Source: Escherichia phage vB_EcoM_VR26. Taken from it: a stretch of 64,000 bases of DNA. Shown here piece by piece: positions 5,224 to 63,942 of this stretch (position 1 is its first letter; each line of letters begins with the position of its first letter). The stretch lies in sequence record NC_028957.1, one strand, 5' to 3'. A program made the translations under genes and the position numbers. The notes under the pieces were generated by a model. The model was not told the origin of the DNA, searched no databases, and saw only the letters and a program-made list of their open reading frames with translations.

Positions 5224-5421
5224 TTACTGCGCTTTAGCACCTTTCCAGCCTTCGTACATCAATGCGGCCGATAATAATATTGTCCCTGCACATTTTGAAT
5301 AATAGAGATTCCAAAACCAGTTCAGAAAAACTTCATCATCAATACCTTGAGCTATCATATTTTCAAAGAACTGACGACGAGATTCAGCAATTCGCTGTGA
5401 TAATTTAGATTCAGGATTCAT
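5224..5421 (-). CDS. hypothetical protein (65 aa)
   Basis: ORF track. Confidence 0.4.
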   Translation of the reverse strand: MNPESKLSQRIAESRRQFFENMIAQGIDDEVFLNWFWNLYYSKCAGTILLSAALMYEGWKGAKAQ

Positions 5422-8433: not shown

Positions 8434-8531
8434 TTAAATCATTGTTTGAAGGTTCATTATACTCTATTTCGGAATCGTTGTAAACCGGTTCCTCTGGCTC
8501 GACAGTTTCCCATCGAGCGGTATACCATGGC

Positions 8532-8840
8532 TTAACGGTCACACCAATAACTACTTACTTCAAAATCAGGCTCACCGTCGTCCCAATACCAAGGACCAAC
8601 CGGATGCCAATCGCCATGCTTATCTTCTTCATATTCTTCAGATTCAAGCCCGACATATTGCCATTGGACTTCATAAGCAGTGCCACCAATTACAACCGTG
8701 TTTTCGCCGTACGGGTTAGCAACAGCAAAGTCAATACCTTCTTCTTTCGCCAGGGCTACCATGTATTCATAGAGTTTATATTCCAGGTCGTCTTCTGTAC
8801 CGTCACCTAGAAAAATGGTCTGTTCGTTTAATTCAATCAT
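8532..8840 (-). CDS. hypothetical acidic protein (102 aa)
   Basis: ORF track. Confidence 0.45.
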   Translation of the reverse strand: MIELNEQTIFLGDGTEDDLEYKLYEYMVALAKEEGIDFAVANPYGENTVVIGGTAYEVQWQYVGLESEEYEEDKHGDWHPVGPWYWDDGEPDFEVSSYWCDR

Positions 8841-9025
8841 AATTCCACCATAAATTCAAATAGCTGGTCACGTACACAAGTATCAGTCCAACCCCATTCG
8901 TTGGCTTCTTCTTTTAACCAATCCGGGAGATTTGCCAATACGGTTTCTTTACTAGGCGCAGGAGTATCAAACTCTCTTGCAAACTCTCTTGCGCAGGTTT
9001 CATAAGCTGTATCAAATTCGGTCAT
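8837..9025 (-). CDS. hypothetical protein (62 aa)
   Basis: ORF track; 4-nt overlaps on both sides. Confidence 0.45.
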   Translation of the reverse strand: MTEFDTAYETCAREFAREFDTPAPSKETVLANLPDWLKEEANEWGWTDTCVRDQLFEFMVEL

Positions 9026-9189
9026 TTAAAGTTCCAGAATGAAGCACCAACCAGAAATAAAGGCCAACAAATCATAGACGTCAGCCACCAACAAAAATCA
9101 CCTGCACCAAAATCATCTAATTTAGCTAGGGTCTTAGCATACCCAATACCAATGATAATATACAAAACACCCAACATTAATTCAATCAT
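9022..9189 (-). CDS. hypothetical small membrane protein (55 aa), below ORF-track cutoff
   Basis: Own translation: MIELMLGVLYIIIGIGYAKTLAKLDDFGAGDFCWWLTSMICWPLFLVGASFWNFK; ATGA overlaps with nrdC stop upstream and next ORF start downstream. Confidence 0.5.
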   Translation of the reverse strand: MIELMLGVLYIIIGIGYAKTLAKLDDFGAGDFCWWLTSMICWPLFLVGASFWNFK

Positions 9190-19171: not shown

Positions 19172-19502
19172 CTTCCAATTTTACCTTCATTAATTTAGCG
19201 TATTCGACTGCAGCAGCCCGGCCATCAATTTGACATGTGATTTCATTTACACATTGACTCTTATTGTTCCATTCAGTTTTAATAAAAGCCCAAAATTGTT
19301 CGGACTGCTCGACGCTGGGTTCTTTGAATTGCGAATAGATTTGCATCGCACTATCTGCGTACTGGGTAAATTTACCATCTGTAGCAGAGGACAGATTTGG
19401 GCCTAAACAGCCCATTAGTAATAGACTTAGAGAAAGTCCTCGAATAAGGTCCATAAAGGACTCCTTATTGTTGGTCATGATTACGCTTTGCAGCCTTAAC
19501 AT
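19158..19502 (-). CDS. putative lipoprotein (lipobox-like LLLMGC); start may be internal Met at 19454
   Basis: MDLIRGLSLSLLLMGCLG resembles signal peptide plus lipobox. Confidence 0.45.
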   Translation of the reverse strand: MLRLQSVIMTNNKESFMDLIRGLSLSLLLMGCLGPNLSSATDGKFTQYADSAMQIYSQFKEPSVEQSEQFWAFIKTEWNNKSQCVNEITCQIDGRAAAVEYAKLMKVKLEDEIR

Positions 19503-19528
19503 AGCGGAATACTAGTTAGTATCTGTAT

Positions 19529-19804
19529 TTATAATCTTTTAAACTTGAAACAATATATTGCAAATAAATCAGAAAAATGTCTATCAACCCATATTCTTTG
19601 CACTGGACTAGTAACAGTCAGCATATAATGTGCTTTTTGTAAATTTATTCCATTTTTATTCGGGCATTCTTTATTAACAGAATGGTACGTGCTTGCTACT
19701 ATTTCAATTTCCCTTTCATATCTCTCGCTATCTGTTTGCGTGGGGATAAATGCAATTCCAGCAATAACAAAAATAGAGATATAAGTCCAAATCTTATATA
19801 TCAT
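19529..19804 (-). CDS. hypothetical protein with N-terminal TM/signal segment (91 aa)
   Basis: ISIFVIAGIAFIPTQ hydrophobic N-terminus. Confidence 0.45.
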   Translation of the reverse strand: MIYKIWTYISIFVIAGIAFIPTQTDSERYEREIEIVASTYHSVNKECPNKNGINLQKAHYMLTVTSPVQRIWVDRHFSDLFAIYCFKFKRL

Positions 19805-19811
19805 AAGGACC

Positions 19812-20384
19812 TCAGCTTGTCAATTCGAGCCAATGTTTCCTGCATAAAGATACGTACGATTCATTCCCACCGACTAACACTTGCTCGCCGTCCTTTACAG
19901 CAGCACCGTCGATTACTCGAGCGGTCATGGTTGCTTTCCGGCCGCAATGGCAGACGCCCTTTAATTCAACCAGTTTATCCGAAATAGCCAGAAGTCTGGC
20001 TGAACCGGGAAATAATTGACCCCGAAAATCTGTTCTTAACCCGTAACACATAACGGGGATATTGTAATTATCAACCACTCGTGCTAACTGGTCAATTTGC
20101 TCTGGTAACAAAAATTGAGCTTCATCAACCAGGACACAATGGATATCCTTTTGAGACTCGGCCCATTTATAGAATTCAAACAGGTTCATGTCGGCCGTTA
20201 CCAGGTTTGCTTCCTGGCTAATACCAATACGTGATTTAATTTCAGATTCCGAGTCCCGATTATCAATAACAGGTTTTAGCAAAAGCACACTCATTCCACG
20301 CTCTTTATAGGAATAAGCTGCAGTCAGCAATGAAGCTGTTTTGCCTGCATTCATTGCTGCGTAATGATAAATTAAACTCGCCAT
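19812..20384 (-). CDS. tk: Thymidine kinase
   Basis: 190 aa; YAAMNAGKTASLL P-loop, VLVDEAQFL, CxxC...CRKH zinc site; matches T4 Tk from memory. Confidence 0.95.
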   Translation of the reverse strand: MASLIYHYAAMNAGKTASLLTAAYSYKERGMSVLLLKPVIDNRDSESEIKSRIGISQEANLVTADMNLFEFYKWAESQKDIHCVLVDEAQFLLPEQIDQLARVVDNYNIPVMCYGLRTDFRGQLFPGSARLLAISDKLVELKGVCHCGRKATMTARVIDGAAVKDGEQVLVGGNESYVSLCRKHWLELTS

Positions 20385-20393
20385 ATCACCTTC

Positions 20394-20597
20394 TTAAAGA
20401 GTATTCACATAAGCAATTAATTCGTTTTCTTTCTCATCAAACTGTTCAGCGATTTTTTCGTAATCTTCGGCGCTCACAGGACCCCATTCATCGTATGATT
20501 GCATTCCAGAATTCTCTTCTAGAAGCTCATGGATAAGCTCAAACAATTTATCTTTTTGTTCTTTACTTAGGCTCATAACCATTGCACCTTTAAACAA
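20394..20597 (-). CDS. hypothetical acidic protein (67 aa)
   Basis: ORF track. Confidence 0.45.
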   Translation of the reverse strand: MFKGAMVMSLSKEQKDKLFELIHELLEENSGMQSYDEWGPVSAEDYEKIAEQFDEKENELIAYVNTL

Positions 20598-20791
20598 TAT
20601 TCATCTACGTGTTGGACACGTTTGTTTTTGTCAATAAAAGTATATTCAACATACTCGCCGATATACCACTTATCTACATTGTGCGGACTTTTTATAGGAC
20701 ACTTGGTTGCCCGTGTTTCGGACCAGTGTCGAATAATTGTAGCTTTGTTTTTAGGGTCAAATGGGTGTGGATAATGTGCTTTCATAATCAA
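20573..20791 (-). CDS. hypothetical protein (72 aa)
   Basis: ORF track. Confidence 0.4.
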   Translation of the reverse strand: MIMKAHYPHPFDPKNKATIIRHWSETRATKCPIKSPHNVDKWYIGEYVEYTFIDKNKRVQHVDEYCLKVQWL

Positions 20792-21236
20792 CTACCACCA
20801 AATCAATATCAGGAGTAAACATATCAATTAACCGGGAAACCTTATCCCAATCACCACCTGCAATACCACATCCAATCCTGGGAATATAAATCACAGGCTT
20901 GAACAAAAGGGATTCTGCTTGTCGATTTAATTCTATCATACAATTTACTAAAGCGCCATAATCCAGATTTGGACCCGGTTCATACTGGGTATAAAGGTTA
21001 TAGCACATACCAAATCCAGTTGGCTTATGTTTAAAAACGATAGACATATCACCGAGTTTTTCTCGGGAACCGTATTCAGTTGATGTTTTATCCATTTCTA
21101 AAATTTTTGGGTAAGCCTTTGCCAGTTGGCCAGCAACGCCTGACCCCATTGTATGGAAACAATTACAGCCATGAGCTATGATGTTTCCTTCAAGAAAGAG
21201 GGCGACAATATCGCCCTTAATATAGTTAACAATCAT
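20757..21236 (-). CDS. Macro-domain (ADP-ribose binding/processing) protein
   Basis: 159 aa; HGCNCFHTMGSGVAGQLAKAYP and later GCGIAGGDWDKV resemble macro-domain Gly-rich loops. Confidence 0.55.
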   Translation of the reverse strand: MIVNYIKGDIVALFLEGNIIAHGCNCFHTMGSGVAGQLAKAYPKILEMDKTSTEYGSREKLGDMSIVFKHKPTGFGMCYNLYTQYEPGPNLDYGALVNCMIELNRQAESLLFKPVIYIPRIGCGIAGGDWDKVSRLIDMFTPDIDLVVVDYESTLSTPI

Positions 21237-21592
21237 TTAGAGTTCAATCCTCTGTTATAGGAATCGACTAACCTGTCAACCATACTGGTGCAGGCCGCTT
21301 TATATTTGGCACTCGACAGAATACAATCCATTTCAAATAGTTTCTTTTCATATTTGTTGGATAAAATACTCTTTTTCATAAGAGTGTGTTCAACATCATT
21401 TTGACCGTCTTTATATGCAGCAGTGAGTTTGGCACTGAACTGGATTACACAATCCACATTGCTTGATGCGCAATAATCTTTGGCCGTCCTCGTTGCATAT
21501 TCTATGATGCTATTATTATCATCGCTCTGTACTGAAGCTATTCCTCCCGTGCTGAATACTAACCCTATGGCTAAAGTTATGACTCTTACCAT
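21233..21592 (-). CDS. hypothetical secreted protein (119 aa, signal peptide)
   Basis: MVRVITLAIGLVFSTGGIASVQS signal-peptide-like N-terminus. Confidence 0.5.
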   Translation of the reverse strand: MVRVITLAIGLVFSTGGIASVQSDDNNSIIEYATRTAKDYCASSNVDCVIQFSAKLTAAYKDGQNDVEHTLMKKSILSNKYEKKLFEMDCILSSAKYKAACTSMVDRLVDSYNRGLNSK

Positions 21593-22135
21593 TTAATCCA
21601 CCGTTTTTAATAGGCCTCGTGATTTTAAGTAGTTAGCTTTTTCTAGGACTTGCGAAGCATACGTATTTCCAGCTTTCACATTCCACCCTGCGTTATATGA
21701 TGATAGTGTTTTTCTTATGTCCCCCTTGTGGATGTTCAACCAGTATGAAAGCTCAATATAAGCCCAGCGTGCACTGTTCTCTCTCTTGCTTATCATCTTG
21801 ATTATTTCTTTATCTGTCATTGTCCACCCAACCTGTTTTACGCGCTCGCGCACGGTTGGAAGATAATTTTGGAATATACCATATGCATGATGCTTATCTT
21901 TATTTAATCCTGTATTAACGCCAGCAGATGATTCCTGCCAGGTTAAACCAGCCATGATATATCCCAAACCATTATGTTGGTGCGGATTTTCTTTGTACTT
22001 ACCATTTTTCTGGAACTGTTCTCCAAACGCATAAGCATATTGGAGGTTCTCCATTTGTTCATTACTGAAAGTAGGCTCTACGCTATGGGCAGACATACTA
22101 ACTGTCAATAGTAAAGTGGCTATTACTTTTTTCAT
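21593..22135 (-). CDS. Periplasmic lytic transglycosylase (SLT-domain) protein
   Basis: Signal peptide plus family-1 LT motifs in order: QESS ... GIFQ ... SYNAG. Confidence 0.65.
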   Translation of the reverse strand: MKKVIATLLLTVSMSAHSVEPTFSNEQMENLQYAYAFGEQFQKNGKYKENPHQHNGLGYIMAGLTWQESSAGVNTGLNKDKHHAYGIFQNYLPTVRERVKQVGWTMTDKEIIKMISKRENSARWAYIELSYWLNIHKGDIRKTLSSYNAGWNVKAGNTYASQVLEKANYLKSRGLLKTVD

Positions 22136-22145
22136 GAATTCCCCA

Positions 22146-22604
22146 TTAGATATAAATCACTTTTGTGCTAATTTTTCCTTCCAGACGATTAGAGTTAACA
22201 AACGCCATACGACAACACATGGTTGGAGACTTCCCAGGAAGAGCTGGGTTAACTGTCATTCCTAACCATAAGTTCTTGTCTGTGATTTCCAGACGAAGTG
22301 GACGGTAGTTCACATTCGGGTCAATTTGTGCTTCAACTTCCGGGAGTGGTTTCATCTCCAGGAATTCAACAATTTCTTTTACATGTGGTGTGATTTTTCC
22401 AAACAAGTCAAAAACATATTGTTCGTCAATTTCACGTTGGATTGCACGGTCCAACAGGTGTGGACTGTACTTAATGAAGAATGCTTCAAGGCCTGCTTCT
22501 TTACAAGCCTTGTTGATAGCATTATTAATTTTGAGGAACTCCGTTTCAAAAATACGACGAAGTTTATTGCGGCGAATGTAAACACTTGAATCGATAGTAG
22601 TCAT
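22146..22604 (-). CDS. regB: Site-specific RNA endonuclease RegB
   Basis: MTTIDSSVYIRRNKLRRIFETEF...SPHLLDRAIQREIDE matches T4 RegB from memory; start at ATG 22604 with SD GGAGA (track GTG start at 22661 lies in the promoter). Confidence 0.9.
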   Translation of the reverse strand: MTTIDSSVYIRRNKLRRIFETEFLKINNAINKACKEAGLEAFFIKYSPHLLDRAIQREIDEQYVFDLFGKITPHVKEIVEFLEMKPLPEVEAQIDPNVNYRPLRLEITDKNLWLGMTVNPALPGKSPTMCCRMAFVNSNRLEGKISTKVIYI

Positions 22605-22631
22605 GATTATCTCCTTTTGTTTGATGGGATA

Positions 22632-22661
22632 ATCATAACTCATTTCAACCTGCTTGTACAC
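22632..22661 (-). promoter_or_regulatory. T4-type early promoter upstream of regB
   Basis: GTGTAC -18- TATGAT. Confidence 0.45.
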
Positions 22662-22966
22662 TATTCTTTAAAACGAATTAGCTTATTTAATGACTGTGAG
22701 ACTTCAGCACGAACAGCGTGTAAATTCTTAAGCTGTTCAAGGCGTTGCTCGTAGTAAGCAATTTCATCTTCTTCAAGACAGTCGTTTGAATCTTCTTTAA
22801 GATAGTTCCCGTAGTCCTGAAAGGCCTTACGAATAACTTCCTGGAAATCGTCTAGACTTTGAATTTTTGGCTGTTTCGGTGTGAATCCAAACGGATTGGA
22901 ATCATTTATGCGGCGATGAGAAGCGGTTGATAACTCATAACCAAAACCAGAATTAATCTGCGCCAT
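22661..22966 (-). CDS. hypothetical protein (about 101 aa)
   Basis: ORF track; start moved to internal Met giving TAATG coupling with upstream ORF. Confidence 0.45.
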
Positions 22967-23229
22967 TAGTATTTTTCCTCGGATCGAAATACTGCACGAC
23001 ATGCCCACATGCTGGCTTCTTTTAGATGTTGCTTAGCATACTTAAGAGCCTGCACTGCATCCATATCTTCTTTGGTTTGTTGCTCTGTTTCATTTTCTTT
23101 CAAGATATATGCTTCTTCAATCAGAGCATCAAACATCAATCCAAGACGGACTTCTGCATCTTTAATAGCGTTCACTTTACCGATTTTATCGTCGGTGTGC
23201 GGCTTGTAACCTTTGATATCTTCAATCAT
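22966..23229 (-). CDS. hypothetical protein (about 87 aa)
   Basis: ORF track; start moved to Met 23229 giving ATGA coupling with upstream ORF. Confidence 0.45.
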
Positions 23230-23459
23230 TTCACTTCCTCGCCAGTTGCGATATCGTATTCTACCAAACGAAGGCCATCGGTCCAACCCTGAACGGAGAT
23301 ATAAGTGCTAGGATAAACCAGTTCTTTACCGTTCCACTGACCACCGTCCCAAACTTCCAGAAAGTCTTGTTCACCCGGACCATTAAACCATTCAACGAAT
23401 CTTTTCAAGGCTGCATCAGAGCCTTCAATCGTCAGTTTAGACATATTTTTTCCAGTCAC
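23226..23459 (-). CDS. hypothetical protein (77 aa)
   Basis: ORF track. Confidence 0.45.
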   Translation of the reverse strand: MTGKNMSKLTIEGSDAALKRFVEWFNGPGEQDFLEVWDGGQWNGKELVYPSTYISVQGWTDGLRLVEYDIATGEEVK

Positions 23460-23733
23460 TAATTAATCGCACATCCTGGTCATACGTCAGGAGGCTACGA
23501 GTTATAATACCCTTACATGGTCCAGAAATAAATTCCAGAGTAAAGTAAGGAACCAACTTCATCAAGCGAATACTCGGAGCAGTGCAACGAAATCTGGACC
23601 CAATAAAAGGTCCAGACAAAAACACGTACTCAAAGAAATTTGCTTTATTAAAGATTTCAAAATTCTTTACGAAATCTTCAGACCTAACCTTTGGAATAAA
23701 ATAGATTTGGTCAAAAAGCTCTTCATGAGTCAT
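23437..23733 (-). CDS. hypothetical protein (98 aa)
   Basis: ORF track. Confidence 0.45.
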   Translation of the reverse strand: MTHEELFDQIYFIPKVRSEDFVKNFEIFNKANFFEYVFLSGPFIGSRFRCTAPSIRLMKLVPYFTLEFISGPCKGIITRSLLTYDQDVRLISDWKKYV

Positions 23734-24260
23734 TATTGCATTCCTATCACAAAGAATAGCGGTAAAGGCTTAGCGCCTTGACACATAAATTTATTCATCA
23801 TTACCTGATAAGCTTCATAGAACTTATCCATCGCTGGAAGTCGCATGGGCTCTTCGATAATAATCAATAATCGAGTAACAGATAATCCACGATACTTATG
23901 GAAGTTATCTTCGTCTAAAAATGAACGAACGGTATCATAGGCGATAAATCCAGGGCGTTCTACTTGAAGATGTGGTTGTGCCTTAGAAACCTGTTTTATT
24001 ACATTACAGATTTCTCGTGAGCGATGTGAAGAACTCGACATAACAATCACATCATTACCCTTAGAAACCCAATCTGCTGCAAACTGCGCAAGGGCACTTG
24101 TTTTACCTGTTTGACGACCACCGTCAAGTCGAAGAGTACCAAACTCTTGCATTCTTGAAGCAGGTTCATACCAGGTGTATTGGTCTGAATCTAAGCGTTC
24201 AATGGCGCGTTCAGCGAAGGCGTGCATTAAGGTTAGATAAATTGGAGTTAAAAATTTCAT
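23733..24260 (-). CDS. small P-loop NTPase-like protein (175 aa)
   Basis: Walker A-like DGGRQTGKTSAL and Walker B-like LLIIIEEP. Confidence 0.5.
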   Translation of the reverse strand: MKFLTPIYLTLMHAFAERAIERLDSDQYTWYEPASRMQEFGTLRLDGGRQTGKTSALAQFAADWVSKGNDVIVMSSSSHRSREICNVIKQVSKAQPHLQVERPGFIAYDTVRSFLDEDNFHKYRGLSVTRLLIIIEEPMRLPAMDKFYEAYQVMMNKFMCQGAKPLPLFFVIGMQ

Positions 24261-40767: not shown

Positions 40768-41213
40768 CCTTTCCATCCTAATTTTTTCAGTGAGTTTTCA
40801 GTGATTATCCTAAACGTTATACCCATTTTATCTGCCGTAGATTGTGCAGCTTTCCATTTGTCCGAGTTAACAGCCCAGGTATACATCTCGTTAATAAATC
40901 TCTTTTTGCTCGCAGCGGTATTATTAACAGGTTTGGTTGGTGGTCTTGTTTCTTTTAATGGCTTAACTTCGAAAAAGAACTGTTGTCCTGTATCAAACTT
41001 AACCCAGAAATCCATATAATACCTGCGCTTTTTACCATCGGCATTGCTAAAGTAAGGGATGATAACAGTCTCAGAACCCCATTGAACAACGTTCGGATGG
41101 TTGTCGAGCCATCTCATAAGCCAGGCCTCCCAGCTTGACCGGTATTGTATTTTCTTCCAGTCGCCCTTATATTTTTCTATATTAGTGGGCTTAAATTTCC
41201 CGGAGTATGCCAT
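40764..41213 (-). CDS. 4: Head completion protein gp4
   Basis: 149 aa; [29 protein letters not shown]...[14 protein letters not shown] matches T4 gp4 from memory. Confidence 0.9.
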
Positions 41214-41242
41214 ATAGCCTCCTAATAAATATTGATATACTT

Positions 41243-41253
41243 ATTTATAAATG
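41243..41253. promoter_or_regulatory. Divergent overlapping late promoters (gene 4 leftward, gene 53 rightward)
   Basis: ttaTTTATAaatgg: minus strand reads TATAAATA, plus strand TATAAATG. Confidence 0.5.
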
Positions 41254-41261
41254 GAGGCTTT

Positions 41262-41864
41262 ATGCTTTTTTCATTTTTTAACCCAATTGATTATGATGCT
41301 AAAACAATCAGAAAAAACCCTGCATCATTGACGAAAGAAGACGTCTTAAGCATTCCAATGACTGACATTTTCAGAAATTATCGTGCTTACTTTGATAAGG
41401 TCGCGGTCAATTATACACCAAAAACCTATTACATTGCCGGAGCTCCACGCCCGGAAGAATTAGCATATCAGCTATACGGCAACACTCAGCTCTATTGGGT
41501 TCTCCTTATGCTCAATGATATCTATGACCCGTATTATGGTTGGCTTTGTACCCAAGAAGCATCGTATCAAGCATCAATTCAGAAATATTCAAATGTCGGG
41601 GGCAATCAGGTCCTTTATCATGTGAACGAAAACGGTGAGAAGTTCTGGAACCTTGTTTCTTATCCTGATAATCCATACACCTGGTACGATAAAGGCGATA
41701 AAAACAAATTATATCCGCAATACGAAGGTCCATTAGCCGCAGTGGATATCTATGAAGATGCTATTCGCAAAAATGAATACAAACGAGAAATAAAGATAAT
41801 CGACCCTAACGATATCGAATCTTTTATTTCGGCGCTTATTCGTGAGATGGAGAAGTCGCTATGA
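41262..41864 (+). CDS. 53: Baseplate wedge protein gp53
   Basis: MLFSFFNPIDYDAKT...PMTDIFRNYR...YHVNENGEKF matches T4 gp53; ATG 41262 after SD GGAGG (track TTG start at 41232 overlaps the promoter). Confidence 0.9.
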   Translation: MLFSFFNPIDYDAKTIRKNPASLTKEDVLSIPMTDIFRNYRAYFDKVAVNYTPKTYYIAGAPRPEELAYQLYGNTQLYWVLLMLNDIYDPYYGWLCTQEASYQASIQKYSNVGGNQVLYHVNENGEKFWNLVSYPDNPYTWYDKGDKNKLYPQYEGPLAAVDIYEDAIRKNEYKREIKIIDPNDIESFISALIREMEKSL

Positions 41865-59300: not shown

Positions 59301-59935
59301 TGGCTACATATTATAGACTTTATGTGTCGACATTTGAAACATCTAATGGGGTAATGGTGTATGGCGGTAAACGTCATTCACCATATGAAGATTTTAAAGC
59401 AGATAGTTATTTTGGGTCGGGTACTATTGTTAAACGAGCTAAACAAAAATATGGAAGAAAATGTTTAGTCGATATTACCTGGTCTAAACCTTTTGAATCC
59501 CCTGCTCTATTAAAGGAAGCCGAGGCTTTACTAGTCAGTGAACTTTTAGAAAGTTTTGATAATTGTGCAAATTTACACCCAACAGGGGGAGGTGGCCCGG
59601 AAGGTTATAGTCGTCCAGAAGATTCCCCTGCTTTTGGTAAAAAGAGAACAGCAGAATCAAGAAAACGAATGTCGGAAGCCGCAAAACAAAGGGAATGGTC
59701 CGAAGAGGGATTAAAACGTCGTAAAGAGGCAACAGCTCGAATGTGGATTGATTTTAAGGACCGACATCCTGATTTTTCTGATGATAAAAATCCGGCCGCA
59801 CGTAAAATTATTACCGGCGACCTAGAATTTTGTACCGGAAGAAAATGTGCAGAATATTATTCGATAACTCCGGCTGCAGTCATTTACAGATGTAAAAGTA
59901 CAGCCGAAAAATGGAAATTATGGAATTATGCGTAA
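59300..59935 (+). CDS. GIY-YIG-like (Seg-like, possibly degenerate) homing endonuclease inserted between 13 and 14
   Basis: [22 protein letters not shown] and [18 protein letters not shown] align with the Seg-like ORF at 44426; NUMOD3-like [13 protein letters not shown]. Confidence 0.6.
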
Positions 59936-60716
59936 TTCTTATGATGCAAGCTTATTCGCCCGACTTGAAGATGGAACCGGGTATGACAATACAAACTCGT
60001 CAGAGATACTCAACCAATATGTAAACTTTATGCATCATGAAAATACCCAGACTTTAGCCGATGTTATTGTTGCTGAAAGTATTCAGATGCGCGGAATGTC
60101 TCTCTATTACATCCCAAGACAATTCGTTAAACCAGATTTGTTATTCGGCGAAGACCTCCAGAGCAAATTTGATAAAGCATGGAAATTTGCTGGTTATCTG
60201 GATACATTCGATGCATATCAGGGTGATGGTTCCATCTTCAGTAAATTTGGTATGACTGTGAATGATGAAATCACAGTGTCGATTAACCCTAATCTGTTTA
60301 AACATCAATGTAATGGAACCGAACCTATTGCCGGGGATTTGATTTATTTCCCTCTCGATAACAGTCTGTTCGAAATAACCTGGGTACAGCCTTATGACCC
60401 ATTCTATCAGGTAGGTCAAAACGCCATCCGTAAAATCACCGCGAGCAAATACATTTACTCCGGAGAAGAGCTTAAACCTGAATTGCAACGAAATGAAGGT
60501 ATTAATATTCCAGAATTCAGTGAGCTCGATTTGCAACCAATCCACAATATCGATGGCCTTACAGATATCAGTGATATCCCTTATGCAGAATCTGATGAGA
60601 TTAACGCAGAAGCAGCTGAATATGTTAAACCATATTTTGTGCAGAATGGTCGTGGGATTGAGTCTCCTCCTAAGGCAAAACAGGATAGCTTTGACGACAG
60701 TTTCTTTGATGAATAA
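59928..60716 (+). CDS. 14: Neck protein gp14
   Basis: 262 aa; [26 protein letters not shown]...[24 protein letters not shown] matches T4 gp14. Confidence 0.9.
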
Positions 60717-60759
60717 ATACATTTATTAATGCGCCCGAACTGGGCGCCTGGAGGTTACT

Positions 60760-61631
60760 TTGTTTGGGCATTTTTATAATTCGTCTCTGCGTCGCTATAT
60801 CGTTTTAATGGGCGATTTATTTTCCCATGTACAAGTGGCCAGAACCAGAGAAGACACTGGACTTAAATATATTAAGGTCCCTATTTCTTATGCTTCAAAA
60901 GAAAAATTCATGATGCAGCTTGGAAAATGGACCGCTATTCAGAATACACCGACTCCTGACATGACACCGCAAGAACGTGCTGCTCAGAAGGCTAAAATCG
61001 AGACCGTACTGCCCCGTATGAACTTACATCTTGTTGACTTGATGTATAACGGGCAATATAAAACGGCTCTCCAGAATCACACACAGGCGCGATTTGCTAA
61101 TAACGACCCTCGCAAGCAGATATCTCAATATTCTCCTGTACCGGTCAAAATGATTTTTGAGCTTGGGATATATACAAGGCATCAAGATGATATGTTCCAG
61201 ATTATCGAACAAATCATGCCTTACTTCCAACCGCATTTTAATACAACTATCACTGAACTTTACACGAATGAAATTACATTCGAACGTGATATAAGAATCG
61301 TGCTTCAGTCCATTGCTATGGATGAGCAAATTGAAGGTGATGCAATGACTCGTCGTAGACTCGAATGGTCCATTATGTTCGAAGTCAACGGCTGGTTATA
61401 TCCACCGGTTAAAGAAGTGGCCGGAGAAATCCGTACTATCTATCTTGACTTCTTTGCAAATTCCAGAGAGCTTGCGCCGGAAGGTAATTTCGAATCTGTT
61501 GACTCGGAAGCCGTTCCGCGAGACGTTGACCAAGAAGACTGGCAAGGTGAATCCATTCAAACATATTCGCAGGATATTCCTGTACCGGTTGACCCGGTAC
61601 CCCCAGCACCGCGACAAAATAAGGTACCATT

Positions 61632-61635
<4 letters not shown>
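60760..61635 (+). CDS. 15: Tail sheath stabiliser / tail terminator gp15
   Basis: [22 protein letters not shown] matches T4 gp15; TTG start after SD GGAGG. Confidence 0.9.

Positions 61636-63942
<2,307 letters not shown>

What the first reader, a model, noticed from the sequence alone, without database searches (positions are those of the whole stretch)
20757..21236. Macro-domain protein in the tk-regB region
Gly-rich loops (MGSGVAGQ; GCGIAGGDW) suggest a macro domain that binds or hydrolyses ADP-ribose derivatives. In a phage this could counter ADP-ribosylation- or NAD-based defences, or process phage-made ADP-ribosyl marks.
Basis: inference. Interest (0 to 1): 0.5.

Follow-up and report, generated by a model that had tools for sequence, protein, structure and literature searches.

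The report
Phage T4 Tk.4/AdfM macrodomain orthologue
This is the T4-type phage gene tk.4 (recently renamed adfM), a small stand-alone macrodomain enzyme that most likely strips ADP-ribose off phage DNA to defeat the bacterial DarTG2 defence.

Summary

The window is about 99.7% identical to Escherichia phage vB_EcoM_VR7. The ORF is gene tk.4, in the same position as T4 tk.4 (between vs and tk.3) and 59% identical to it with no gaps.

A 2025 preprint shows that T4 lacking tk.4 becomes sensitive to DarTG2, and renamed the gene adfM.

One added detail. The family does not have the catalytic Lys of DarG/TARG1. It has an invariant Gln (Q84; 120 of 120 homologues) together with H22, N25 and G124. This is the active-site signature of Streptomyces SCO6735, a stand-alone macrodomain shown to hydrolyse thymidine-linked ADP-ribose on DNA. 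PhiKZ "AdfM" is a different, Lys-type, DarG-like sub-clade.

In passing, I found a conserved GC-rich hairpin inside codons 7-13 of tk.4. It shows compensatory changes and its function is unknown.

The parts
20757..21236 (-). tk.4 / adfM coding sequence, 159 aa plus stop; stand-alone macrodomain
   Evidence: ORF. Pfam Macro above threshold. Annotated as tk.4 (VR7_gp117) in phage VR7, which is 99.7% identical over window 19800-22200. 59% identical to T4 Tk.4 over 155 aa without gaps.
21159..21173 (-). H22-G-C-N25-C motif; N25 is the conserved macrodomain Asn that contacts the distal ribose
   Evidence: H22 and N25 are present in 118 of 120 homologues; the other 2 have a gap there. They align with SCO6735 H24/N27, with the DarG Asn, and with PhiKZ AdfM N23. 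N27 and N23A mutants lose activity (PMC9411070; PMC13309987).
21126..21149 (-). First Gly-rich loop, MGSGVAGQ (residues 30-37); a phosphate/ADP-ribose-binding loop
   Evidence: G33 is invariant in 120 of 120 and G31 is present in 109 of 120. It aligns with the GxG loop of all compared macrodomains.
20985..20999 (-). N80-L-Y-T-Q84 motif; Q84 occupies the position of the catalytic Lys of TARG1 (K84) and DarG (K80)
   Evidence: Q84 and N80 are invariant in 120 of 120 homologues. The profile alignment to TARG1, MAFFT and hmmalign all put Q84 opposite TARG1/DarG Lys and opposite SCO6735 Q85 and the BT1257 Gln. SCO6735 Q85A is inactive (PMC9411070).
20847..20882 (-). Second Gly-rich loop, PRIGCGIAGGDW (residues 119-130); the diphosphate-binding loop
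   Evidence: P119 and W130 are each present in 118 of 120 homologues, and G122 and G124 in 117 of 120. It is nearly identical to PRIGCGLAGGTW of SCO6735 and PRIGCGLAGGKW of BT1257. SCO6735 G128 (= G124 here) mutation reduces activity. TARG1 D125 corresponds to A126 here.
21248..21252 (-). Shine-Dalgarno-like GAGGA, 11 nt upstream of the ATG
   Evidence: Read directly from the sequence. This is inference only.
21233..21236 (-). ATGA overlap: the vs stop codon (TGA) overlaps the tk.4 start (ATG), suggesting translational coupling in a co-directional gene block
   Evidence: ORF coordinates and sequence. T4 has the same arrangement (vs 61386-61733, tk.4 60922-61389).
21199..21217 (-). Conserved hairpin inside codons 7-13 of tk.4 (AGGGCGAU-AUU-GUCGCCCU), followed by a U-rich stretch; role unknown
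   Evidence: See Noticed in passing.

Best explanation
The ORF is the orthologue of bacteriophage T4 gene tk.4 (adfM, 'anti-DarT factor macrodomain') in a VR7-like T-even phage (Gaprivervirus). It encodes a stand-alone, single-domain macrodomain of the ALC1/TARG1-like class. The most likely mechanism runs as follows. The host DarT2 toxin of a DarTG2 system ADP-ribosylates thymidines in single-stranded phage DNA. The phage protein binds the ADP-ribose moiety in the cleft formed by its two Gly-rich loops and hydrolyses the N-glycosidic ribose-thymine bond. This restores unmodified DNA so that replication can continue; in effect it is an orphan antitoxin. The catalytic constellation is the Gln type described for Streptomyces SCO6735 (His22, Asn25, Gln84, Gly124), with a water-mediated mechanism in which Gln positions the distal ribose. 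It is not the Lys-dependent chemistry of DarG or TARG1. Shown here: the ORF, macrodomain membership, fold class, orthology and synteny with T4 tk.4, and the residue constellation with its invariance. Shown by others on relatives: the T4 tk.4 deletion phenotype on DarTG2; SCO6735 hydrolysis of thymidine-ADP-ribose DNA and the Q85/N27 requirement. Inferred: that this 59%-identical allele has the same anti-DarTG2 activity, and that the activity is enzymatic.

For: Orthology: the window is 99.7% identical to phage VR7, where the gene is annotated tk.4 'similar to T4 Tk.4'. The gene order vs.1-vs-tk.4-tk.3-tk.2-tk matches T4. Identity is 59% over 155 aa with no gaps, E 2e-71.

Function of the orthologue: a T4 transposon screen on DarTG2 gave tk.4 as the single significant hit, and a clean tk.4 knock-out was sensitised (preprint 10.1101/2025.11.20.689424). 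Independently, T4 lacking adfA and adfN stays DarTG2-resistant, which implied a further factor (PMC11825919).

Active site: Q84, N80 and G33 are invariant in 120 of 120 homologues, and H22 and N25 in 118 of 120. These align with SCO6735 H24/N27/Q85/G128. SCO6735 cleaves thymidine-linked ADP-ribose from DNA, rescues DarT toxicity, and loses all activity on Q85A (PMC9411070).

The only defence-system model matched in PADLOC is DarG, over its macro part (E 1e-7; T4 Tk.4 1e-9). A different phage macrodomain, PhiKZ gp104, has been shown biochemically to remove DarT2-made ADP-ribose from DNA, so the strategy exists in phages (PMC13309987).
Against: No experiment exists on this allele. The anti-DarTG2 role rests on one preprint, is genetic only, and was seen under special conditions (M9 glucose, 30 C). 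No biochemistry has been reported for any Tk.4-type protein in the literature I could search.

The protein lacks the catalytic Lys of DarG/TARG1 (Q84) and the TARG1 Asp (A126). It also lacks SCO6735's Lys34 (S32 here) and its longer Lys-bearing mobile loop, both implicated in DNA positioning. The protein is mildly acidic (pI 5.1), unlike SCO6735 (pI 9.5). However, the biochemically active PhiKZ AdfM is equally acidic (pI 5.05).

Sequence similarity to Poa1p, an ADP-ribose-1''-phosphate phosphatase, is about as strong as to DarG. Substrate therefore cannot be read from homology alone.
Confidence: 0.75

Rival explanations
1. It is a small-molecule ADP-ribose-derivative hydrolase, either an ADP-ribose-1''-phosphate phosphatase (Poa1p-like, the basis of the database name 'phosphatase') or an O-acetyl-ADP-ribose deacetylase. 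On this reading it cleans up metabolites rather than acting on DNA.
Against: These names are homology transfers, not tests. From established knowledge, T4-type RNA repair (Pnk plus Rnl1) makes ordinary 3'-5' junctions without a 2'-phosphate, so no Tpt1/KptA-derived Appr>p or Appr1p is expected. The only phenotype known for the orthologue is DarTG2 sensitivity. The NCBIfam O-acetyl-ADP-ribose deacetylase model scores 17.6 bits against a cut-off of 291. The central region with Q84 did not align with Poa1p in the single-sequence search.
Confidence: 0.08
2. It neutralises DarT2 mainly without catalysis, by binding the toxin or by shielding/sequestering ADP-ribosylated sites. This would resemble AdfA, AdfB and the C-terminal domain of DarG.
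For: Catalytically dead SCO6735 (Q85A) inhibits DarT in vitro even better than dead DarG or TARG1 (PMC9411070). Known phage factors AdfA and AdfB act by direct binding (PMC11825919; PMC11481870). The protein is acidic (pI 5.1).
Against: The active-site residues are invariant in 118-120 of 120 homologues down to about 39% identity, which argues for selection on catalysis. There is no equivalent of the DarG C-terminal DarT-binding domain: the DarG models match only positions 2-147 of 338. A binder would be toxin-specific, yet the family is spread over at least 2780 phage records from many hosts.
Confidence: 0.07
3. It reverses ADP-ribosylation on targets other than DNA thymidine. Candidates are protein marks written by the phage's own Alt/ModA/ModB transferases, Glu/Asp-linked protein marks, or uridine ADP-ribosylation of RNA. 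Any DarTG2 effect would then be secondary.
For: TARG1, DarG and SCO6735 also reverse uracil ADP-ribosylation in RNA, and SCO6735 also acts on protein substrates (PMC13036486; PMC9411070). T-even phages encode ADP-ribosyltransferases (background in PMC9503650).
Against: From established knowledge, Alt/ModA/ModB modify arginine, and ALC1-like macrodomains are not known to cleave Arg-ADP-ribose. In the T4 screens reported, tk.4 was a hit only with DarTG2 and was dispensable on plain E. coli K-12. From established knowledge, T-even phages remain sensitive to the mRNA ADP-ribosylating CmdTAC system (abstract seen), so Tk.4 does not protect against adenine-linked RNA marks.
Confidence: 0.07

Closest known systems
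Bacteriophage T4 Tk.4 = AdfM (anti-DarT factor macrodomain; NP_049723; bioRxiv 10.1101/2025.11.20.689424)
   Same: Same gene. Identity is 59% over the full length without gaps. It sits in the same position between vs and tk.3 with the same ATGA overlap with vs. It has the same H22/N25/N80/Q84/W130 constellation and the same 20-nt hairpin at codons 7-13.
   Different: It is 4 residues longer at the C-terminus, so it overlaps tk.3 by 29 nt instead of 4. Its second loop is GCGIAGGDW, against GAGIGKGNW in T4. The neighbourhood lacks tk.1. No experiment has been done on this allele.
Streptomyces coelicolor SCO6735 (PDB 5E3B) and Bacteroides BT1257 (2AFC/2FG1): stand-alone Gln-type ALC1-like macrodomains
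   Different: Identity is only 26%. SCO6735 Lys34 is Ser32 here, and the mobile loop after Gln is shorter and has no Lys. SCO6735 is basic (pI 9.5) while this protein is acidic (pI 5.1). SCO6735 is a bacterial DNA-damage-inducible protein, not a phage counter-defence.
DarG antitoxin of DarTG2 (T. aquaticus 5M31/5M3E, M. tuberculosis 5M3I)
   Different: There is no catalytic Lys (FPTK in DarG, YTQ here). There is no C-terminal DarT-binding domain: the NCBIfam DarG equivalog scores 30.7 bits against a cut-off of 250, matching positions 2-147 of 338. There is no adjacent darT gene.
PhiKZ gp104 'AdfM' (chimallivirus DarG2-like antitoxin; PMC13309987)
   Same: A phage-encoded stand-alone macrodomain that counters DarTG2, with the same name and role. 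The Asn (N23) aligns with N25 here.
   Different: It belongs to a different sub-clade. gp104 keeps the DarG FPTK Lys and matches Mtb DarG at E 9e-25, whereas Tk.4 matches it at 2e-6. BLASTP between gp104 and this protein gives only a 31-residue match, E 0.001. gp104 is imported into the phage nucleus, and T-even phages have no nucleus. The two proteins are most simply explained as separate recruitments.
T4 AdfN (gp30.3, NADAR) and AdfA/AdfB
   Same: They share the same logic of orphan antitoxin-like counter-defence against DarTG systems in T-even phages (PMC11825919).
   Different: AdfN has an unrelated fold (NADAR), is specific for guanine-ADPr, and acts on DarTG1 but not DarTG2. AdfA and AdfB act by binding the toxin.

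Membership tests
Macro domain superfamily (Pfam PF01661) | Profile match above the curated gathering score | tested here: met
   35 bits against cut-off 22, E 1.5e-8, profile positions 2-117 of 118.
Macro domain superfamily (Pfam PF01661) | Three-layer alpha/beta/alpha macro fold with two Gly-rich ADP-ribose-binding loops | tested here: met
ALC1/TARG1-like macrodomain class (TARG1, DarG, Poa1p, SCO6735) | Closest structural and sequence neighbours are members of this class rather than MacroD, PARG or macroH2A types | tested here: met
Lys-type TARG1/DarG hydrolases | Catalytic lysine (TARG1 K84, T. aquaticus DarG K80); in TARG1 also D125 | tested here: not met
   Gln84 occupies the Lys position and Ala126 the Asp position. 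Gln is invariant in 120 of 120 homologues.
SCO6735/BT1257-type (Gln-type) thymidine-ADPr DNA hydrolases | Gln at the Lys position plus Asn27, His24 and Gly128 equivalents | tested here: met
   Q84, N25, H22 and G124 align with SCO6735 Q85, N27, H24 and G128. The roles of these residues are from PMC9411070.
SCO6735/BT1257-type (Gln-type) thymidine-ADPr DNA hydrolases | Lys34 and the extended Lys-bearing mobile loop (K89/K93) that position ssDNA | tested here: not met
   Ser32 aligns with Lys34. The loop after Q84 (YEPGPNLDY) is shorter and has no Lys.
SCO6735/BT1257-type (Gln-type) thymidine-ADPr DNA hydrolases | Hydrolysis of thymidine-linked ADP-ribose on ssDNA | not testable with these tools
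   This needs an enzyme assay.
DarG antitoxin (DarTG2 toxin-antitoxin system) | Full-length match to the DarG equivalog, including the C-terminal DarT-binding domain | tested here: not met
   NCBIfam NF048014 scores 30.7 bits against cut-off 250, matching only positions 2-147 of 338. The PADLOC DarG model matches positions 3-144 of 329. The protein is 159 aa.
DarG antitoxin (DarTG2 toxin-antitoxin system) | Encoded next to a darT toxin gene | tested here: not met
   The neighbours are vs and tk.3 in a T-even early-gene block.
T4 Tk.4 / AdfM orthologous group | Full-length sequence similarity to T4 Tk.4 and conserved position between vs and tk.3 | tested here: met
   59% identity, E 2e-71, no gaps. 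Synteny is shown.
T4 Tk.4 / AdfM orthologous group | Required for phage growth on DarTG2-carrying hosts | not testable with these tools
   Shown only for T4.
Poa1p-type ADP-ribose-1''-phosphate phosphatase | Family-level similarity across the whole domain, including the catalytic region | tested here: inconclusive

The most novel reading that the evidence does not exclude
The T-even 'AdfM' (Tk.4 type) may not be a domesticated DarG at all. It may be an independent recruit from the SCO6735/BT1257 branch of genome-protecting macrodomains, working by the Lys-independent, Gln/water mechanism. PhiKZ 'AdfM' would then be a separate recruit from true DarG. If so, phages captured thymidine-ADP-ribose erasers at least twice with different chemistries. 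The Tk.4 type might also share SCO6735's wider range (uracil-ADPr on RNA, protein marks, direct DarT inhibition), making it a broad eraser rather than a DarTG2-specific factor. Its expression may additionally be tuned by the conserved hairpin at codons 7-13.
Probability: 0.4. Interest if true: 0.35.

Novelty: already known. Interest (0 to 1): 0.2.

Why it matters
For genome annotation, the gene should be labelled 'macrodomain ADP-ribosylglycohydrolase, Tk.4/AdfM, anti-DarTG2 (predicted)' rather than 'phosphatase' or 'hypothetical protein', which are the labels in most of the records listed.

For biology, at least 2780 of the 50,697 phage records searched hold a relative of this protein, so DNA ADP-ribosylation looks like a widespread pressure on large lytic phages.

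The one point of wider interest is mechanistic. The whole Tk.4 family uses Gln where DarG and TARG1 use a catalytic Lys. Inhibitor or mechanism work done on DarG cannot simply be transferred, and the name 'AdfM' currently covers two different macrodomain sub-clades.

Tried and rejected
1. A promoter/terminator consensus scan of 19500-24000 gave 15 promoter-like sites against 14.6 +/- 4.3 expected, and 4 terminator-like sites against 2.6 +/- 1.7 expected. Neither is above chance, so no transcription signals are claimed.
2. tblastn against plasmids, run to find DarG-type relatives next to darT, returned only stand-alone macro genes and SLOG fusions. It was used only to recover a Streptomyces homologue and, through it, the SCO6735 sequence.
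3. A PDB search with the C-terminal two thirds of the protein, run to force display of the DarG/TARG1 alignments, lost the region around Q84 and was uninformative. The profile search and my own alignments replaced it.
4. hmmalign misplaced the PhiKZ gp104 FPTK motif by a few columns. The MAFFT alignment and the gp104-DarG alignment were used for that protein.
It was repeated without that row.
6. A literature search for 'AdfM' was swamped by DOI strings containing 'adfm'.
7. I asked whether the protein's acidity argues against DNA as substrate. I rejected this because the biochemically active PhiKZ AdfM is equally acidic.
8. I considered DarG membership and rejected it.

Full report
**1. What is in the sequence**

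The ORF listing finds one ORF at exactly the reported coordinates, 20757..21236. It lies on the minus strand, starts with ATG and encodes 159 aa. The plus strand under the gene holds only short ORFs of 33-69 aa with no support.

The gene sits in a tightly packed minus-strand block. Its ATG overlaps the stop codon of the upstream gene (ATGA at 21233-21236). A GAGGA lies 11 nt upstream of the ATG. The 3' end overlaps the next gene by 29 nt. A consensus scan found promoter-like and terminator-like sites only at chance frequency, so I claim no transcription signals.

**2. Identity of the window and the gene**

Window 19800-22200 is 99.7% identical to Escherichia phage vB_EcoM_VR7 (Tevenvirinae, Gaprivervirus). 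In that record the ORF is tk.4 (VR7_gp117), which RefSeq names 'phosphatase'. T4 has the same order, with tk.4 between vs and tk.3 and overlapping vs by 4 nt. The protein is 59% identical to T4 Tk.4 over 155 residues without a gap, E 2e-71. This is the orthologue of T4 tk.4.

**3. Is it a macrodomain?**

Yes.
- Pfam Macro (PF01661) scores 35 bits against a gathering cut-off of 22, E 1.5e-8, covering almost the whole profile.
- PHROG 335 matches at 1e-70.
- All significant PDB sequence matches are macrodomains: BT1257, Poa1p, SCO6735, M. tuberculosis DarG and TARG1. A profile of 54 family members raises these to E 1e-19 to 7e-12.
- An AlphaFold2 model built on 53 sequences is confident (pLDDT 94.1, pTM 0.88).

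The protein therefore belongs to the ALC1/TARG1-like class.

**4. What is already known**

A 2025 preprint (10.1101/2025.11.20.689424) screened a T4 transposon library on E. coli expressing DarTG2. tk.4 was the single significant hit, and a clean deletion sensitised T4 to DarTG2. The authors renamed the gene adfM and proposed enzymatic removal of ADP-ribose from DNA, without biochemistry.

Earlier work had shown that T4 lacking adfA and adfN (gene 30.3, a NADAR acting on guanine-ADPr from DarTG1) remains DarTG2-resistant, which predicted a further factor (PMC11825919).

A Cell Reports 2026 paper gave the same name, AdfM, to PhiKZ gp104. It showed in vitro that gp104 removes DarT2-made ADP-ribose from a TNTC oligonucleotide, with N23A reducing activity (PMC13309987).

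A 2022 survey had already noted that macrodomains are the commonest ADP-ribose-processing domain in phages, present in 41% of myoviruses (PMC9503650). Consistent with that, tblastn finds relatives of this protein in at least 2780 of 50,697 phage records. The finding is real but already explained.

**5. A detail worth recording: the active site is Gln-type, not Lys-type**

In an alignment of 54 family members (39-90% identical to the query), the invariant residues are G8, H22, G23, N25, C26, G33, A35, N80, Y82, Q84, P119, G122, G124 and W130. Across all 120 cluster representatives retrieved, Q84, N80 and G33 are present in 120 of 120, and H22 and N25 in 118 of 120.

The profile alignment to TARG1, a MAFFT alignment and hmmalign all place Q84 opposite the catalytic Lys of TARG1 (K84), T. 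aquaticus and M. tuberculosis DarG (the FPTK motif) and PhiKZ gp104 (FPTK). TARG1 D125 corresponds to A126.

The same substitution defines Streptomyces SCO6735 and Bacteroides BT1257 (ANMIGQHG). I recovered the SCO6735 sequence through a Streptomyces plasmid homologue. Its published residue numbers (H24, V25, N27, K34, Q85, K89, G128) map onto H22, G23, N25, S32, Q84, no equivalent, and G124 of the phage protein.

SCO6735 is a stand-alone macrodomain. It hydrolyses thymidine-linked ADP-ribose on ssDNA and protects cells from DarT. It is dead as Q85A, depends on N27, and was proposed to use an activated water rather than a Lys nucleophile. Even when inactive it also inhibits DarT (PMC9411070). 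It additionally reverses uracil ADP-ribosylation of RNA (PMC13036486).

The Tk.4 family thus carries the SCO6735-type catalytic core. It lacks SCO6735's Lys34 and its long Lys-bearing mobile loop, and it is acidic (pI 5.1 against 9.5). PhiKZ gp104 is active on DNA and is equally acidic (pI 5.05), so acidity is not an argument against a DNA substrate.

**6. Two different proteins are called AdfM**

PhiKZ gp104 matches Mtb DarG at E 9e-25 and keeps the Lys. Tk.4 matches DarG only at 2e-6. Its BLASTP match to gp104 covers 31 residues, E 0.001. The simplest reading is two separate recruitments of thymidine-ADPr erasers by phages: one from DarG proper and one from the SCO6735/BT1257 branch. I did not build a phylogeny, so this remains an inference.

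**7. Membership**

The protein is a macrodomain of the ALC1-like class and an orthologue of T4 Tk.4/AdfM. It is not a DarG antitoxin, for three reasons.
- The NCBIfam DarG equivalog scores 30.7 bits against a cut-off of 250 and matches only positions 2-147 of 338, and PADLOC's DarG model matches only its macro part.
- There is no C-terminal DarT-binding domain.
- There is no neighbouring darT gene.

It works like DarG's macrodomain but is an orphan.

**8. Rivals**

The database name 'phosphatase' reflects similarity to Poa1p/A1pp and has not been tested. T4-type RNA repair does not generate the relevant substrate (established knowledge), and the only phenotype known is on DarTG2.

A purely binding mechanism is possible as a contribution, given the SCO6735 precedent, but it fits poorly with the invariant catalytic residues.

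Erasing the phage's own Arg-linked marks is unlikely for this class. Activity on U-ADPr RNA is plausible as an extra.

**9. Verdict**

The gene is already known (tk.4/adfM), so novelty and interest are low. The residual interest lies in the Gln-type chemistry, in the two-clade issue behind the name AdfM, and in the incidental hairpin described next.

**10. Incidental: a conserved hairpin inside the gene**

The scan flagged a stem-loop at 21217..21199 (minus strand): AGGGCGAU-AUU-GUCGCCCU, 8 pairs, followed by CUCUUUCUU. It covers codons 7-13 (K G D I V A L).

- The same 20 nt occur in T4. This is the longest identical run between the two genes, which are 64.5% identical overall; the next longest run is 11 nt.
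- The stem uses minor codons of this phage: GGC 15%, GTC 14%, GCC 16%, AAG 31%.
- I ran a codon-degenerate search for I-K-G-D-I-V-A-L-F in IMG/VR. Together with VR7, T4 and the window it gave 20 sequences in 11 haplotypes. Across these, the Gly, Val and Ala codons of the stem (GGC, GTC, GCC) never change, while the loop and flanking synonymous sites do.
- One lineage has AAG to AAA together with CUN to UUG, a compensatory G-C to A-U change (L005; the same contig as L036, and also L035).
- A lineage 42% identical to the query has AGGGAGAU-UUA-AUCUCCCU. There the encoded residues changed from V-A to I-S and a C-G pair became A-U.
- Other lineages (KGDIVKL, TGNIVEL) lack the hairpin.
- Over all 43 distinct sequences, 67.2% of cells are paired against 61.5 +/- 1.3 in shuffles (0 of 500 as high) and 32-58% in slid controls. 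The covariation score is 0.242 against 0.167 in shuffles (0 of 500) and 0.174 or lower in slid controls.
- Stabilities are -11.9 to -13.4 kcal/mol (z -2.7 to -4.7), against -1.2 kcal/mol in a lineage without the hairpin.

The function is unknown. Candidates are a terminator or attenuator, a 3'-end stabiliser behind vs, or an effect on translation at position +20.

Noticed in passing
window 21199-21217 (minus strand), inside tk.4 codons 7-13; also T4 (L002 about 5353-5371, minus strand) and loci L022-L046: A GC-rich 8-bp hairpin (AGGGCGAU-AUU-GUCGCCCU, about -12.6 kcal/mol) followed by a U-rich stretch lies 20 nt into the tk.4 coding sequence. It is the longest identical run between the window gene and T4 tk.4 (20 nt; next longest 11) and uses minor codons. 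Its Gly, Val and Ala codons are invariant in all 20 sequences compared, while neighbouring synonymous sites vary. Compensatory changes occur in two other lineages, and several lineages lack it. The function is unknown; it could be a terminator or attenuator behind vs, an RNA stabiliser, or a translation effect.
   Followed up: partly
literature versus window 20985-20999 (Q84 motif); PhiKZ gp104 sequence from PMC13309987: Two unrelated papers use the name AdfM for different macrodomain sub-clades: T4 Tk.4 (Gln-type, SCO6735/BT1257-like) and PhiKZ gp104 (Lys-type, DarG-like, FPTK motif). Their pairwise BLASTP match covers only 31 residues, E 0.001.
   Followed up: yes
window about 2336-2392 (between gene 47 and a-gt.2; mapped from VR7 34642-34698): In the near-identical VR7 record, gene 47 is followed after 57 nt by a-gt.2. 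From memory of the T4 map, a-gt, a-gt.1 and 47.1 lie at this position in T4; no alpha-glucosyltransferase gene is annotated here. I did not check whether a glucosyltransferase is encoded elsewhere.
   Followed up: no
window 19812-22604 compared with T4 59763-62740: The tk-regB block is one gene shorter than in T4, because tk.1 is absent between tk and tk.2. In addition, tk.3 overlaps the end of tk.4 by 29 nt instead of 4, because this Tk.4 is 4 residues longer at the C-terminus.
   Followed up: partly
window 35359-35435 and 35440-35514 (minus strand): Two adjacent tRNA genes, tRNA-Arg(TCT) and tRNA-Met(CAT), are the only tRNAs ARAGORN finds in the 64 kb window.
   Followed up: no
phage records MN966730 (Vibrio phage Cilsick), LC487410 (KIT04), NC_055850 (Quinn); hits H66, H73, H74: In several Vibrio phages the Tk.4-like macrodomain match lies next to, or overlaps, a gene annotated ribose-phosphate pyrophosphokinase. 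This hints at a link with phage NAD/ADP-ribose salvage rather than, or besides, DarT counter-defence.
   Followed up: no
Bacillus thuringiensis plasmids (e.g. NZ_CP013278, hit H96) and Cytobacillus plasmid H106: Relatives of the Tk.4 macrodomain (about 30-36% identity) lie within genes annotated 'SLOG family protein', which suggests macro-SLOG fusions in bacterial conflict systems.
   Followed up: no
window 8473-9153 (mapped from VR7 40779-41459, VR7_gp086): An HNH/MobE-like homing endonuclease gene sits between 49.1 and 49.3 in the VR7 annotation. It is a mobile insertion in the nrd/49 region.
   Followed up: no
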